Below are positions 32,176-38,100 of a stretch of 64,000 nt of DNA, piece after piece. The position numbers are program-made. The stretch comes from Escherichia coli (GTDB taxonomy: Bacteria; Pseudomonadota; Gammaproteobacteria; Enterobacterales; Enterobacteriaceae): NCBI RefSeq assembly GCF_003790525.1, contig NZ_CP033635.1. The stretch is one strand, 5' to 3'. How positions within the stretch are numbered: position 1 is the stretch's first letter; each line of letters begins with the position of its first letter.

Positions 32176-35100
32176 TAGCTATGTGGGTGGCTCATCGCTG
32201 ACGGCATGTATGCGTAACAGAGCATCTGTATCATCCGTTTGACGTTTTCGTCGGCGATCCTGCCAGCTATTCGGACATCTTGTGAAACCCAAAGGCAGCG
32301 GCTGACGAAGCTTATCCGGTATCCTCTCGCAACAAAGGTACATGTACCATCTACTTTTTGGGCGGCCATTGTCGACAGATTCTTAAGTAGAACAGCTAAG
32401 TTTAGATTTAGGAAAAAGTTGTTAAAATCAAGCAAATACTTATCATCATCACTTGATTTCGTAAACGCAAAACTACGATACTATTAACAAATTCTTCTAT
32501 GCATTCTTACCGAATGTTGGCGGTAGCGTGCTTAATCACTCGGATTTAGTATGAAAAAAAATTCTTTAAATGTGATTTTGGATACTGTTTTCTCGGCGAA
32601 AAGCATCAATGGTGAGAAATCTCATTCTTTTATATCGTATAAATTAGTTAAAGCTGTAGAAAATTTAAGTGGATATGACTTGGATCTTTTCCTCAATCGT
32701 GCGATAAACCATCCTAACTTCCCTAGCAATATGGATTTTTCCTTACGAACAGTTTTTACAATTGAACAATCTAACACTATTGAATTTAAAAATTTCATTT
32801 CAGAATTGGTGTGGTACAAGCATATTTTCATACGATATAAAAAACACCTTAATGATATATTATCGGCAAAGGCAAGACTTGAGAAGTTAGTTCTTTTCGC
32901 AACAGGTAGTGAATGTATAAAATATTTAGATGAAATAGAAAGCTCTTATGGAGTTAGTTTTTGGAGCATTGATGCTCGTCTCTTAATAAATAAAGTTTTG
33001 CTTAACGAAAGCAATGGGTTATATGTTAAATCAATTCTATCTAAAACCCACTATAAACTTACAGAGTTTATGTTACAGCAGCTATTATTTAAGCATCAAG
33101 TACATAACTTTGATGATTTTTCAAAGAACCTTATAAAAATACTAGATGATATGCGCACCACTCAAGATAATGGGTATGCTAGAAATTTAGCTGATGGTAT
33201 TTCATCCTTTTTAATACCTTTAGAGTTTGATAAAAATATAGATCTCAAAAATAGAACCTTAGCACCATTTACCAACCTTCCTTTAATAGATCAATTTATC
33301 ATATTCCAGAGAACTATAAGCGATTTACAACTTCATGGAAATGGTTTAAGAAATAGCGAGTTAAGCTTAATTGCAGAAATTAACAGCTTTATTAAAAATA
33401 ACTATCTCAACAATATTTTAGATGGAAGAGAGCGTAATATAGAGAATATTGATGAACACTATAAAAGTGTTATTCGACGTTATACTATAGGTGATTATAC
33501 TGGGTGTATTTCAGAAATAAATTCAGTTCGAACGCAGAAGACAATTTTGCCATTAATTGAAATATATGCAAAATCCCATGTGTATCTTGATAAGAAAATT
33601 TCAGACTCATGCATATTCAATAAATTAACAAACTGGCTTATAGCAATTATAAAATGCGACAGACGCGCTGGAAAATACATCGATGAATTTGAACTTTTAG
33701 CATCTAAGATATATTTCAATTCAAATTCATCCTCTCTATTCTTCACATTATATAATTTAATAAGTGATAACCATAATAAATTAAACATATCTCGTATAAA
33801 TCTAACCAAAAATGGTTCCTTTGTAACATCCCTTCATTTGAATATAACAATCAAGGAACTATGGACTGAACTTGGAATAAAAGAGAATGAGATACCAAAA
33901 TATCGATTATTTAAATTCAAAGACCTAGCAAATCTATCCTTTGATGAAATCAAAAAACACTACGAAGTATACAATGATAATGTAATAATTCGCTCTGAAT
34001 ATTTAAAAGATTATACTAACTTTTTATTAGAAAATGAAAAGTATGAATTATGCATCCAATTTATAGCTGAAAACTGCATCGGCAACCCCGCAAATTATTA
34101 CTACTTCCCAATCCGAAAAATAATTGATTTTGTAAAAGACAATATTTTTGACTATGCAAGCGTGGCCTTATCTATATTGATAGATATTTTTGTCAAAAGC
34201 ACATCAAACACTTCAAATGAGCTTCTTCTCGAAAGTTATGAGAGTTTAGTAGATATTTCAAATATTAATAGGCCATCTACCCATTATTGCTCTAAGCAAT
34301 TAACTCCATTAGAGCACTATTTCCTTAAGTTTATCTGTATACCTTCCGTGATGGATTCAGACCCTTCATTCACAGGCACGGACGACTTGAAGAAGGAAAG
34401 AATTGCTATTATAGATCTATTATTAAAAGAACACGATGATGCAGATTTATTGAAAGAGAAAGACGAAATTATAGATGAAATATCATTCGAAGAAATAAAA
34501 ACAAAATATGAGACAGGAAAAATATTTGTTGATATAGAAAATTTAAAACGGGCAAAGCTTGAAAGATACAGATATTATTTTGATGCACTTAAGGATTCGC
34601 TTATTCTCGGACTAGAACCACCTGAAGACTTTGCTTTAATTACAGACGATGGGAATATCACAGCCATTCCATCTGGCGATACAAACTCTATAATCCATGA
34701 ACTTCTAAAAGAACTAATCTCCGATTTTGTTAAAAATGAAAATTACGGTCTTGATAAATATTTGAGTGCAGATATACGGCATGGTGTTTTTGAAAATCAA
34801 CTCAGATCAAGTGCTGAAAAATCGCAATTAATAACTGATATGGATGGTACTGGACAGTATTCGAAAAGCAATTTAATTATTGAGACATATCCATTAATTA
34901 ACCCTATTATAAATAACGAAATAGGGACAGCAATAGCTGATTTCTCTTATCACTTTGACATTGAATTGGCTAAAGCCAATTCCTGGTTCAATGTCAAGAC
35001 AATGCTCATAAGTGAATCACAGCAAGGTATGATTGATTTCCTCATTTCTGTTGATATGTTTAATTCATTTAAAGCAGCAGTTTCAAATCAAGCATCTTTT

Positions 35101-38100
35101 GAGAAGTTTTTTGACGCTTGTATTAACTTCATGTGGGAAAGAACGTTCAGATGTTTGAATGATATTAAAGAGCGATTGCATTACGAATTTAAGAGGAATA
35201 TTTTAGATTTAATTGCCACTCTTAGGCATCAAATTGATATCTATAGAAGACGTAGTTCCATGAGAGAAATCCAGGAGAAAATTGACCTCTTGGCCGAAAG
35301 CATTAATAAAGAAATTGCAACAGTCTGCGATTGGTTAAATGTACTTGAGTATAACGAGGAGAAAATATATAAAATATCATCCGTGATGCAGGCATGTAGG
35401 AAAACTTTTTTTAATATACACCATTGTTCTGATGATGCTATCGTTTTTGATTCAATGTATCATGATGATGAACCAAAATTATCTTATAAAGAAGCCAAGC
35501 CTCTAATCACATCAATAATAACAGCGTTAAACAATGCTATGGCCTATGGTAATAAAAAAATCTTTATCAGTATTAAGCCTGAAGAAAAGTCATGGAAAAT
35601 AACCATCAGAAATTTGATAATTGAGACAAAGAACAGAACTACCAACCAAATTTTACAAGAGATTGATGATAAAATAAAACGAGGGGATAATAGTCTAAAT
35701 ATAAAAGAAGGCGGAGCTGGAATATATAAAATATATGATTTATTATGTTCATTACCGCAAAGATTTAATGTGAATCATTGCATCCAAAATAACGAATTCA
35801 TTTTAAATATTGAGATAAAGAAATGAAAATTCTTCTTGTTGAGGATATTGAATATAAGCGTGATAAGGTGATCGGTTTACTAGAGTCTATTTCTGCCGAT
35901 GTATCAGTCGATGTAGCTAAATCTTATGTTTCGGCAGTAAATTCCGCAACCAGTAAAACTTATGATCTTATAATATTAGATATGAGCCTTCCCACTTACG
36001 ATAAGGGGCCTAATGAAAATGGAGGTCGCTTCAGAGTGTACGGAGGGAAAGATATTATTCGCAAGTTAATGAGAGGAAAAGAGCATCCAGTAGTTGTGGT
36101 TTTAACACAACATACAACTTTTGGTGAAATTGGTGAGCAAAAAAATACTGACACTCTATCACAAGAGTTGAATGCTTTAATGGGATCAAAATTTATAGGT
36201 ATTGTAAAATATGACTCAACTAAACCTCAATGGAAAGATGAAATAAAAAAAGTCGTACAGGATTTGTTATGATTAAAATATTAATAGTTGATGACAATAA
36301 ATCTAGAATTGAAAAGCTAAAATCTAGCTTAACTGAACTCATCACAAAAAACATGATAAGGATTGATGAGAAATATACAAGTGACGCCGCAAAAATCGCG
36401 CTCAAGTTAAATCAATATGATTATTTAATTCTTGATGTCTTTTTACCTAAAAAAGATAACTATAGCCCAGATGAAAGAAATGGATTAGGTCTTTTAAAAC
36501 AAATAAATTCAGATTCTAAATTTTACTCTCCAAAAAAAATAGTTGGCATAACTGCATATCTGAATGATATATCCAGATATGAATCCGAATTCAGAGAATA
36601 TGCTTCAATTATATTCGAGGCTCGACGTAATGATACTGGATGGCTTGAATCACTCAAAAAAATCATTGAAAAGGATGTTGAATCTCAAGTAAGTTATAAT
36701 CTCAATGAAAAAGATAGTGTTTTAATAACAGTACACGGTATAAGAACCTACGCACCTTGGCAAAATACCATAGAAGAAAAAATAACCAATATATCAAATA
36801 AATTTAACTATATAAAATTCAATTATGGTTTTCTAAATATTCTTTGTTTTTTATTCCCTCCGACTAGACATCTATTTGCAAGAAAAATAATCCAAGACAT
36901 ACGAATTACAGTGGAATCAAATAAGAATAAAAGAATTTATATTATTTGTCATAGTTTTGGTACCTACCTTGTATATTGTGCCTTAAGTAAACTGACACAT
37001 ACGGATGCAAAAATTGAATGTTTAATTTTTTCTGGTAGCGTATTAAAACGTACTACCTCATTGAAAACATTAAAGCAACATTGTAATGCAATAATAAATG
37101 ACTGTGCTGTAAGTGATTATATTTTATTACTATGTAAAATGTTAGTCATTGGCTTGGGCGATGCAGGCAGAAAAGGGTTTATTGAGCCAAATGATGGTGT
37201 TTTCATTAACCGCTATTTTAAAGGAGGACATTCAACTTACTTCGAAGATAAAGATTTCATAGAAGTGAACTGGCTTCCTTTAATTTTTGACAATAAAAAT
37301 ATCGCGTCACGAGATGAAAGAAAAAATCATATTTTTTCCGATGTCACCAATGCTTTGCAAAATATAATTGAATATTTAAAAATACCAATATGGTTATTTT
37401 TTTCTTTTTTATTGATAGCACTGGTATTATAATATCACTGCACATTAAAAATCATATTGGAGCTTCCCTCATAAAGCTCCAATATAAAACACCATCATTT
37501 CAATAGTACCTGCAGCTAATTAAAACTAGTCAACCGAAAAAATTAATCACTTTAAACTTTAGTATGCACTTATACTTTCTTAATAATAGAAAAACACTTA
37601 CAAATAAATTAATCATGTCAATCTCCGTAACTACAACCTCGGAAAGTATGTAAACAGGAATCATTACTGAAAAAAACACGATTTCAGCAGAATTCTAGAA
37701 ATATCCTGTGCTGCTGCCGATACCAACTTTCGTATATACTACCCTTCACGTTCCTTCTCGTTTTTATAAAACTATTCATTTATAACTATCAATAGGCATC
37801 ATAACCAATGTAAGTGTAAGTACTGGTGAACGAGTGTCAATGGAGTTAAAAGTATCACTTCATCCTGCTAAATATAAGTTATCCTACGTTTTAATATACT
37901 AGAACTCAAAATTAGAATGGTTTGTTAATATTAATAGATTTACCATTGATATCTTTTGACACCTTAAAAAAATCTATACCTTTTATCCACTGACATAACT
38001 GTTGTAGTGTTTCCATTGCCTGTTCTAACTCATTTTTTTCAATTCTAACGCCCCCATGATGGCTACAGGAATTTAATAATTCCTGAGCTAGAGTGATGTC

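What the first reader, a model, noticed from the sequence alone, without database searches (positions are those of the whole stretch)
32551..35826. About 900 residues of uncharacterised N-terminal sequence ahead of a kinase-like C-terminus
Only the last ~150 residues carry ATPase-like motifs. The preceding region is large, Leu/Ile/Lys/Asn-rich, has no obvious TM helices and no motif I can recognise; it may be a cytoplasmic sensor (TPR-like or other helical repeat array). A clear DHp H-box is not obvious by eye, so kinase assignment is tentative.
Basis: seen in the sequence. Interest (0 to 1): 0.6.

Follow-up and report, generated by a model that had tools for sequence, protein, structure and literature searches.

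The report
Detocs phage-defence sensor kinase (DtcA)
The 1091-residue protein is the sensor kinase of a known three-gene anti-phage "defensive two-component system" (Detocs, lipase-like membrane-effector subtype) carried on a mobile island in E. coli, so it is an unannotated member of a known family, not a new kind of system.

Summary
The ORF is real: 32551..35826 (+), 1091 aa, Ile/Leu/Lys/Asn-rich, with no TM helix. It is the first gene of a translationally coupled three-gene operon in a ~30% GC island at tRNA-Thr (thrW), 100% identical to E. coli SMS-3-5.

It is a DtcA-type sensor kinase of Detocs (Rousset et al. 2023).
- A profile of its homologues matches the experimentally tested Enterobacter cloacae DtcA end to end (E 3e-116) and the Vibrio alginolyticus DtcA.
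- All three carry Pfam PF27260 (Y4jQ).
- The downstream genes are a stand-alone receiver (DtcB) and a receiver + alpha/beta-hydrolase + TM protein (DtcC), 32% identical to the tested E. cloacae "Detocs-hydrolase" DtcC.

The only invariant His, H744 (motif IRHGxFxN), aligns with V. alginolyticus H645, whose mutation abolishes defence. It lies 251 aa upstream of the N-box Asn, outside the DHp-like hairpin. The G1 box is degenerate, which explains why Pfam sees no kinase.

Verdict: new member of a known kind, low to moderate interest. The phage trigger, the hydrolase substrate and the unusual His placement remain open.

The parts
32551..35826 (+). dtcA-like gene: cytoplasmic sensor histidine kinase of Detocs (1091 aa; Pfam PF27260 'Y4jQ' family; PADLOC PDC-M60A)
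   Evidence: ORF. PADLOC PDC-M60A E 4.5e-55. Homologues carry PF27260. Family HMM matches tested E. cloacae DtcA at E 2.7e-116 and V. alginolyticus DtcA at 5.9e-17.
32551..34620 (+). Residues 1-690: all-alpha helical-repeat (TPR-like) array, the presumed phage-sensing domain. Residues 1-540 are the least conserved part of the protein.
34678..34830 (+). Residues 710-760: most conserved block of the family, with the non-canonical H-box 'YGLDKYLSxEIRHGxFxNxxRS'. Invariant R743-H744 (His codon CAT at 34780-34782) is the presumed phospho-acceptor.
   Evidence: Invariant columns. Conservation peak at 721-780. BLASTP aligns H744 with V. alginolyticus DtcA H645 ('RRIRHGTFEG'). H645A abolishes defence: Rousset 2023.
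35098..35334 (+). Residues 850-928: long helical hairpin (H850-896 / H905-928), DHp-like but without a conserved His
35365..35823 (+). Residues 939-1091: GHKL/Bergerat-fold catalytic ATP-binding (CA) domain. N-box N995, N1021 in place of the G1-box Asp, G2-box E1053-G-G-x-G1057, K1060.
35823..36272 (+). dtcB-like gene: stand-alone receiver domain (149 aa, phospho-acceptor Asp53 at 35979-35981). ATGA start/stop overlap with dtcA.
   Evidence: Pfam Response_reg E 3.7e-7. PADLOC PDC-M60B E 2e-35. 39% identity to the DtcB of a PNP-type operon. 32% identity to E. cloacae DtcB. Overlap and Asp position.
36269..37432 (+). dtcC-like gene: receiver (Asp56, 36434-36436) + alpha/beta-hydrolase (HG156-157, nucleophile Ser229 in H-S-F-G at 36953-36955, Asp283, His321) + C-terminal TM helix (~365-387). 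ATGA overlap with dtcB.
   Evidence: Pfam Response_reg E 6e-5 and weak DUF900/Lipase_3/DUF676 hits. PADLOC PDC-M60C E 1e-22. 32% identity over 385 aa (E 8.6e-56) to the tested E. cloacae JD6301 DtcC. Invariant residues. TM. RefSeq annotates it 'alpha/beta hydrolase'.
37452..37487 (.). 15-bp-stem hairpin followed by a T-run, 20 nt after the dtcC stop, between convergent genes. Terminator-like end of the operon.
   Evidence: It is the only terminator-like site in 32000-38000; the scan reports it on the minus strand, and a symmetrical stem could act on both strands (inference).
38979..40402 (-). Island anchor: P4-type tyrosine integrase (38979-40202) next to tRNA-Thr(CGT) thrW (40327-40402). proA follows at 40518.
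   Evidence: NCBIfam PRK09692 integrase E 1.9e-89 and proA. ARAGORN. RefSeq annotation. GC drops from ~51% to ~30% between 32400 and 38900.

Best explanation
The ORF encodes DtcA, the cytoplasmic sensor histidine kinase of a Detocs ('defensive two-component system') anti-phage operon of the hydrolase+TM effector subtype. The operon sits on a low-GC integrative island at thrW in E. coli SMS-3-5. Proposed mechanism, with shown and inferred steps marked: (1) the variable, TPR-like helical N-terminal ~690 residues recognise a phage-derived cue (inferred; the cue is unknown); (2) the C-terminal GHKL domain (fold shown) uses ATP to phosphorylate the invariant His744 (inferred by homology to V. alginolyticus DtcA H645, which is genetically required); (3) the phosphoryl group passes to Asp56 of DtcC, activating its membrane-anchored serine alpha/beta-hydrolase (Ser229/Asp283/His321), which probably attacks membrane lipids or another ester substrate and stops the infected cell, i.e. 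abortive infection (inferred); (4) DtcB, a lone receiver (Asp53), acts as a phosphate sink that prevents auto-activation (by analogy with the Vibrio system). The kinase core is atypical. The phospho-acceptor His lies 251 aa upstream of the N-box Asn, against ~104 aa in EnvZ. It is on a separate conserved helical segment ahead of a His-less DHp-like hairpin. The G1 box DxGxG is replaced (Asn1021).
Against: No experiment exists on this particular locus. Identity to the tested DtcA proteins is low: ~20% over 429 aa to E. cloacae and only a local BLASTP hit to V. alginolyticus. Pfam-A and NCBIfam give no kinase hit on the sequence itself. The G1 box is degenerate and the canonical DHp His position is not His, so autophosphorylation chemistry is assumed, not shown. 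An IS3 element ends ~465 bp upstream and might affect expression. SMS-3-5 does not appear in the stored (truncated) part of Table S5. The hydrolase substrate is unknown: Pfam lipase/esterase hits are weak, E 0.0025-0.03.
Confidence: 0.87

Rival explanations
1. An ordinary regulatory or environmental two-component system, not an immune system. The kinase would sense a cytoplasmic metabolite and control a lipase/esterase for housekeeping or virulence purposes.
For: Two-component logic with two receiver proteins. No direct phage test on this locus.
Against: There is no DNA-binding output. The effector is a TM-anchored hydrolase of the same family as one shown to give phage resistance. The operon is cargo of a low-GC integrase/tRNA island found in only 16 of 5426 E. 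coli genomes. Relatives swap effectors (PNP, hydrolase, others) as defence systems typically do. All three proteins match PADLOC defence-candidate models.
Confidence: 0.04
2. A GHKL ATPase or Ser/Thr-type kinase (PDK/BCKDK-like or anti-sigma-like), not a His-autophosphorylating kinase. The conserved His744 would be structural or catalytic, not a phospho-acceptor.
Against: Two dedicated receiver-domain partners with intact acceptor Asp residues are encoded in the operon. R743-H744 is invariant across the family and aligns with V. alginolyticus H645. In that system, H645A and the receiver mutation DtcC D58A both abolish defence. The top structural neighbours are overwhelmingly bona fide HKs.
Confidence: 0.05
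3. A bona fide Detocs operon by descent that is silent or decaying in this strain, for example disconnected from its promoter by the neighbouring IS3 insertion.
For: IS3 lies immediately upstream (30909-32086). The neighbouring DUF905 gene is a pseudogene, and the island lacks a detectable distal att repeat. The promoter scan is no better than shuffled sequence.
Against: All three ORFs are intact with coupled starts. All catalytic and acceptor residues are preserved. The 5.4-kb segment is >=99.9% identical in 16 genomes with the same context. About 465 bp of AT-rich upstream DNA remains.
Confidence: 0.08

Closest known systems
Detocs-hydrolase of Enterobacter cloacae JD6301 (DtcA/DtcB/DtcC; Rousset et al. 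2023, bioRxiv 10.1101/2023.01.24.525353, Table S1, Fig. S8C)
   Same: Same gene order and sizes: 1103/150/386 aa against 1091/149/387 aa. Same Pfam family on DtcA (PF27260). The DtcA family HMM matches it end to end at E 2.7e-116. DtcC has the same receiver + alpha/beta-hydrolase + TM architecture with an identical HSFGTY nucleophile elbow and GGHS motif, at 32% identity. DtcB is 32% identical. It also sits next to an integrase on a mobile element.
   Different: Pairwise identity of the DtcA proteins is only ~20% and restricted to the C-terminal 430 aa in BLASTP, so the N-terminal sensor is essentially a different sequence. The integration site and host differ. This locus is untested.
Canonical Detocs of Vibrio alginolyticus UCD-32C (DtcA + DtcB + DtcC-PNP ATP nucleosidase)
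   Same: Three-gene logic. The DtcA H-box motif IRHGxFE holds the functionally required His (H645 there, H744 here). There is a lone receiver 'buffer' DtcB, and the DtcC receiver is homologous (29% identity over 98 aa).
   Different: The effector is a PNP-family ATP nucleosidase there and a TM-anchored serine hydrolase here. DtcA is shorter (984 aa) and matches only partly. The killing mechanism (ATP depletion) therefore does not carry over.
Classical HisKA/HATPase_c sensor histidine kinases (EnvZ, CpxA, PhoQ, HK853, WalK)
   Different: No TM or periplasmic sensor. The phospho-acceptor His is not on the DHp-equivalent helix but ~135 aa further upstream: His to N-box Asn is 251 aa, against ~104 aa. 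There is no DxGxG G1 box (Asn1021). It is not recognised by Pfam HisKA or HATPase_c.
CheA (P1 HPt domain separate from P3 dimerisation and P4 CA) and mitochondrial PDK/BCKDK kinases (N-terminal helical bundle + GHKL)
   Different: No sequence similarity to HPt was detected. The arrangement here is inferred from secondary structure and profile alignment only, because model coordinates could not be inspected.
PADLOC candidate system PDC-M60 and Pfam PF27260 (Y4jQ)
   Same: All three proteins hit PDC-M60A/B/C, and homologues are labelled PF27260.
   Different: These are name tags without mechanism. PDC-M60 evidently corresponds to Detocs, but that equivalence rests on my inference from the shared hits, not on a statement I found.

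Membership tests
Detocs (defensive two-component system) | Three co-directional adjacent genes dtcA-dtcB-dtcC, with at most one foreign gene between them (MacSyFinder rule in Rousset 2023 Methods) | tested here: met
   32551-35826, 35823-36272 and 36269-37432, all on the + strand, with 4-nt ATGA overlaps. Rule quoted.
Detocs (defensive two-component system) | DtcA homologous to validated DtcA proteins | tested here: met
   Family HMM against E. cloacae DtcA gives E 2.7e-116 over the full length, and against V. alginolyticus DtcA E 5.9e-17. PF27260 is recorded on the closest homologues of this protein (P0001, 100% identical over 80% of its length, and P0002, 63% identical) and on both validated DtcA proteins. 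The original authors' HMMs were not available.
Detocs (defensive two-component system) | Conserved phospho-acceptor His in DtcA (V. alginolyticus H645) | tested here: met
   H744 aligns with H645 in BLASTP and in the HMM alignment. It is invariant in 145/145 aligned homologues.
Detocs (defensive two-component system) | DtcB: stand-alone receiver domain with acceptor Asp | tested here: met
   Pfam Response_reg E 3.7e-7. Asp53 in LIILDMS. 39% and 32% identity to DtcB of the PNP-type and E. cloacae operons.
Detocs (defensive two-component system) | DtcC: N-terminal receiver fused to a cell-killing effector (here the 'Hydrolase + TM' subtype) | tested here: met
   Response_reg E 6e-5 plus alpha/beta-hydrolase signals. 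Invariant D56, S229, D283 and H321. C-terminal TM. E 8.6e-56 to E. cloacae DtcC.
Detocs (defensive two-component system) | Confers phage resistance that depends on the His and Asp residues and the effector active site | not testable with these tools
   Shown only for the V. alginolyticus system (with mutants) and the E. cloacae system (defence only) in Rousset 2023.
Histidine kinase catalytic (HATPase_c / GHKL) domain | Bergerat ATP-binding fold | tested here: met
Histidine kinase catalytic (HATPase_c / GHKL) domain | Sequence-profile match to HATPase_c | tested here: inconclusive
   Pfam finds no hit on this protein. Only 5 of 69 relatives hit HATPase_c_5 and 3 of 69 hit HATPase_c at E<=0.1. 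PDB profile hits are E 0.07-3. However, hhalign against five E. coli HK cores gives Prob 93.3, E 2.7e-7.
Histidine kinase catalytic (HATPase_c / GHKL) domain | N, G1 (DxGxG) and G2 (GxGxG) boxes | tested here: inconclusive
   N-box Asn995 is invariant and G2 E-G-G-x-G is 94-99% conserved. The G1 Asp/Gly motif is absent: Asn1021 in 96% of relatives, and Thr in V. alginolyticus.
Classical HisKA-type DHp domain | Phospho-acceptor His on DHp helix 1, ~100-110 aa upstream of the N-box Asn | tested here: not met
   The canonical His column aligns to R882, and the family consensus there is not His. H877 and H893 are not conserved. H744 is 251 aa upstream of N995. The 700-840 region has no profile similarity to HK H-boxes.
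TPR repeat proteins | Tandem 34-aa helix-turn-helix repeats matching TPR profiles | tested here: inconclusive
   All-helical 1-690 with a modal helix length of 14 aa. Weak Hop TPR2A, BamD and designed-TPR matches at profile positions 302-398 (E 0.02-4). Single-member Pfam hits to ANAPC3, TPR_2 and TPR_RNF123. No hit on this sequence itself. Annotated 'TPRs' by Rousset 2023.

The most novel reading that the evidence does not exclude
DtcA-family kinases (PF27260) could be a distinct architectural class of histidine kinase. In this reading the phospho-acceptor His sits on its own conserved helical module (IRHGxFxN, residues ~710-760), separated by ~100 residues from a His-less DHp-like hairpin. 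That would resemble an intramolecular four-helix bundle or a CheA/HPt-like arrangement, not a homodimeric DHp. It is coupled to a GHKL domain that has lost the G1 DxGxG motif. If so, autophosphorylation geometry, oligomeric state and possibly nucleotide handling differ from all structurally characterised two-component kinases. I found no structural or biochemical description of this in the searchable literature.
Probability: 0.35. Interest if true: 0.5.

Novelty: new member of a known kind. Interest (0 to 1): 0.27.

Why it matters
Practically, this resolves a 'hypothetical protein' plus 'response regulator' plus 'alpha/beta hydrolase' trio in RefSeq E. coli genomes (16 of 5426 complete genomes) as a Detocs-hydrolase anti-phage system carried on a thrW island. 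That is relevant for phage host-range prediction and phage therapy against such strains. Scientifically, the family still has three open questions that this locus could help address in a native E. coli host: what the ~690-residue helical sensor recognises, what the membrane-anchored hydrolase cleaves, and how a kinase whose acceptor His lies outside the DHp-like hairpin autophosphorylates. None of these is a surprise at the level of system type.

Tried and rejected
- Pfam-A and NCBIfam on the 1091-aa protein gave nothing, and PHROGs gave nothing.
- phmmer against PDB sequences gave only a chance RSC2 hit at E 0.4.
- The word-indexed homologue search found only 2 proteins. The exhaustive search was needed.
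- Single-sequence AlphaFold was useless (pLDDT 35.5). The 125-sequence alignment was too large for the Pfam and AF2 services, so a 69-sequence alignment was used.
- The profile search of PDB sequences gave only sub-threshold TPR and HK hits.
- I tested whether the His744 segment is a diverged copy of the DHp-like hairpin or of a canonical H-box. No similarity was found (Prob <2%).
- I looked for a distal att repeat of the tRNA-Thr 3' end and found none in the window.
- The promoter scan was no better than shuffled sequence in this AT-rich DNA.
- The neighbouring 321-aa ORF gave no significant hit in PADLOC, NCBIfam or Pfam, and only a borderline PHROGs hit of unknown function (phrog_622, E 0.0021).
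- I could not access model coordinates, so the His744-to-ATP-site distance was not measured.
- Literature searches for PF27260 and for later Detocs mechanism papers returned nothing useful. PDC-M60 appears in only one survey paper.
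Full report
**1. Observation**

The window carries an uninterrupted ORF at exactly 32551..35826 (+), ATG start, 1091 aa. No 19-residue window reaches transmembrane hydrophobicity.

The ORF lies in a sharply bounded low-GC segment, about 30% GC from ~32400 to ~38900, against ~51% in the flanks. The 5.4-kb segment is 100% identical to E. coli SMS-3-5 (NC_010498.1). It is present in only 16 of 5426 complete E. coli genomes, always chromosomal. RefSeq calls the protein 'hypothetical protein' WP_000742272.1.

It is not a chance ORF. An exhaustive phmmer search finds 1498 cluster representatives at E<=1e-3 (185 at <=1e-30). Most are ~1100 aa and align end to end.

**2. Surroundings**

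Two ORFs follow on the same strand with 4-nt ATGA start/stop overlaps.
- 35823..36272 (149 aa) is a lone receiver domain (Pfam Response_reg E 3.7e-7), with acceptor Asp53.
- 36269..37432 (387 aa) has an N-terminal receiver (E 6e-5, Asp56). It continues with an alpha/beta-hydrolase region that gives weak DUF900/Lipase_3/DUF676 signals, and ends in a C-terminal TM helix.

A 5-sequence alignment of the third protein shows invariant HG(156-157), H-S229-F-G-T-Y, D283 and G-G-H321-S. This is a serine-hydrolase oxyanion/nucleophile/acid/base set.

A terminator-like hairpin lies at 37452-37487. Beyond it lie an unknown 321-aa ORF on the minus strand, a P4-type integrase (38979-40202) and tRNA-Thr(CGT) thrW (40327-40402), followed by proA. 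Upstream are an IS3 element and typical CP4-type island cargo: CbtA/YeeU toxin-antitoxin, an antirestriction protein and a JAB/RadC-like protein. The same context is found in strain CM2.

**3. Identity**

PADLOC models of one candidate defence system hit all three proteins: PDC-M60A 4.5e-55, B 2e-35, C 1e-22. Homologues of the large protein carry the recent Pfam family PF27260 'Y4jQ'. They sit in the same three-gene arrangement.
- P0002 and P0003 have the same hydrolase effector.
- P0058 (E 7.9e-46) sits upstream of a receiver and a receiver-PNP_UDP_1 protein. This is the canonical Detocs architecture.
- Other relatives have different third genes.
- An Enterobacter hormaechei IncF plasmid carries a 1191+146+384-aa version whose third gene is 32% identical to ours.

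Rousset et al. 2023 (bioRxiv 10.1101/2023.01.24.525353) define Detocs as three components.
- DtcA is the sensor kinase, annotated 'TPRs + Histidine kinase'.
- DtcB is a lone receiver, proposed to act as a phosphate buffer.
- DtcC is a receiver fused to an effector.

About 80% of effectors are PNP ATP nucleosidases; the rest include nucleases and TM-containing proteins. A Detocs with a TM alpha/beta-hydrolase from E. cloacae JD6301 protects E. coli against diverse phages. Their Table S5 lists 'Hydrolase + TM' Detocs in E. coli WCE035, O76 and G177, and in Klebsiella, Vibrio, Yersinia and others.

Using the DtcC sequences printed in their Table S1, I recovered loci that encode identical DtcC proteins, together with the adjacent DtcA genes (L009 Vibrio-type, L010 E. 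cloacae-type). Both DtcA proteins carry PF27260. The HMM built from 125 homologues of the window protein matches E. cloacae DtcA over its whole length (E 2.7e-116) and V. alginolyticus DtcA (E 5.9e-17). Our DtcC is 32% identical over 385 aa to E. cloacae DtcC (E 8.6e-56). Our DtcB is 32% identical to E. cloacae DtcB and 31% to V. alginolyticus DtcB. The locus therefore meets every sequence-testable criterion for Detocs, hydrolase+TM subtype.

**4. Is it a kinase?**

On the face of it, the criterion is triggered: Pfam-A and NCBIfam return nothing for this sequence. A PDB profile search gives only sub-threshold hits. Those hits fall into two classes: TPR proteins at profile positions 302-398, and HK catalytic domains at 966-1063.

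Stronger tests are positive.
- Among 69 relatives, 5 hit HATPase_c_5 and 3 hit HATPase_c at E<=0.1.
- hhalign of the family's residues 930-1091 against a profile of E. coli EnvZ/PhoQ/CpxA/BaeS/PhoR cores gives Prob 93.3%, E 2.7e-7 (loci).
- An AlphaFold2 model built on the 69-sequence alignment is confident (mean pLDDT 88.1, pTM 0.72). The single-sequence model had failed.
- Foldseek against the PDB returns almost exclusively HK DHp+CA cores at prob 1.00: AdeS, CpxA, HK853, VicK, ZraS, CusS.

Invariant or near-invariant residues map to the N-box Asn995 and the G2 box E1053-G-G-x-G1057, plus K1060.

**5. The H-box**

The only invariant His in the family is H744, preceded by invariant R743, within the family's most conserved block 'YGLDKYLSxEIRHGxFxNxxRS'. 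BLASTP aligns H744 with H645 of V. alginolyticus DtcA ('RRIRHGTFEG'). That is the residue whose Ala substitution abolishes defence. So a phospho-acceptor candidate exists, but not where the eye expects it.

Its position is non-canonical.
- It lies 251 aa upstream of the N-box Asn. The spacing is 228 aa in V. alginolyticus and ~238 aa in E. cloacae, against 104 aa in EnvZ.
- In the model, the CA domain (939-1091) is preceded by a long helical hairpin (H850-896/H905-928).
- hhalign aligns 866-1087 to canonical DHp+CA (Prob 88.6, E 2.7e-6). The canonical His column falls on R882, and the family consensus there is not His.
- H877 and H893 are not conserved.
- The 700-840 segment has no detectable profile similarity to HK H-boxes or to the 841-935 hairpin.
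- The G1 box DxGxG is absent. Asn1021 occupies its position in 96% of relatives.

These features explain the Pfam miss. They suggest, as inference only, a His-bearing module separate from a His-less DHp-like hairpin. That is reminiscent of CheA or of the helical bundle of PDK/BCKDK, both of which appear among the structural neighbours. I could not inspect coordinates to test the geometry.

**6. The N-terminal ~690 residues**

The model is all-alpha here: 38 helices covering 69% of residues, with a modal length of 14 aa. Residues 1-540 are the least conserved part of the protein, as expected for a diversifying sensor. TPR membership is only weakly supported by sequence. 'TPR-like helical repeat array' is the appropriate description.

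**7. Mechanism (best explanation, ~0.87)**

- A phage cue is sensed by the helical array (inferred; the cue is unknown).
- The GHKL domain phosphorylates His744 (inferred by homology to a genetically validated residue).
- The phosphoryl group passes to DtcC Asp56, activating the membrane-anchored Ser229/Asp283/His321 hydrolase. This probably damages membrane lipids and aborts infection (inferred; the substrate is unknown).
- DtcB Asp53 buffers leaky signalling (by analogy with the Vibrio system).

Three rivals are each judged unlikely, for the reasons given in their entries: an ordinary regulatory two-component system, a non-His GHKL kinase, and a silenced remnant.

**8. Novelty and score**

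The system type is published, experimentally validated in a close architectural relative, and already catalogued in other E. coli strains. This locus is therefore a new, and in RefSeq unannotated, member of a known kind. The residual interest lies in the non-canonical kinase core and the unknown trigger and substrate. Interest 0.27.

Noticed in passing
window 37912-38877 (-): A 321-aa ORF in the same low-GC block, between the Detocs operon and the integrase. It has no significant Pfam, NCBIfam or PADLOC hit, and only a borderline PHROGs match of unknown function (phrog_622, E 0.002). RefSeq annotates it as a hypothetical protein (WP_000220589.1), and it is conserved with the island in strain CM2. 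It could be further island cargo, possibly defence-related.
   Followed up: partly
window 30909-32086 (-): An IS3-family transposase (programmed frameshift; annotated as frameshifted pseudogene in strain CM2) ends about 465 bp upstream of dtcA. It marks the boundary between the ~30% GC Detocs block and ~51% GC island DNA, and might influence expression of the operon.
   Followed up: partly
window 28471-30698 (-): Typical CP4-type island cargo upstream of the IS3: CbtA-family toxin, YeeU/YfjZ antitoxin, DUF987, a JAB/RadC-like protein, an antirestriction protein and a DUF905 pseudogene, then the core gene yagU at 27064-27678. No distal repeat of the tRNA-Thr 3' end was found in the window, so the island's far boundary is undefined.
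   Followed up: partly
window 35611-35613 (Asn1021 codon of dtcA): Across the DtcA family, the GHKL G1-box Asp (DxGxG) is replaced by a 96%-conserved Asn with no following glycines (Thr in V. alginolyticus DtcA). In GHKL ATPases that Asp contacts the adenine N6 (my background knowledge). Nucleotide binding or specificity may therefore be unusual.
   Followed up: partly
L008 (Enterobacter hormaechei IncFIB/IncFII conjugative plasmid NZ_CP124122.1, 40018-45192): A Detocs-hydrolase-like trio (1191+146+384 aa), with all three genes annotated 'hypothetical protein', sits next to a tyrosine recombinase on a conjugative clinical plasmid. Homologues also occur on Agrobacterium, Sinorhizobium, Arcobacter and Bacillus plasmids, so the family is spread by plasmids as well as chromosomal islands.
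   Followed up: partly
window 5753-10006 (-) and 18001-20000: A 1417-aa ORF on the minus strand, and a separate 38.5% GC dip at 18-20 kb just before the ecp fimbrial operon. Neither was examined.
   Followed up: no
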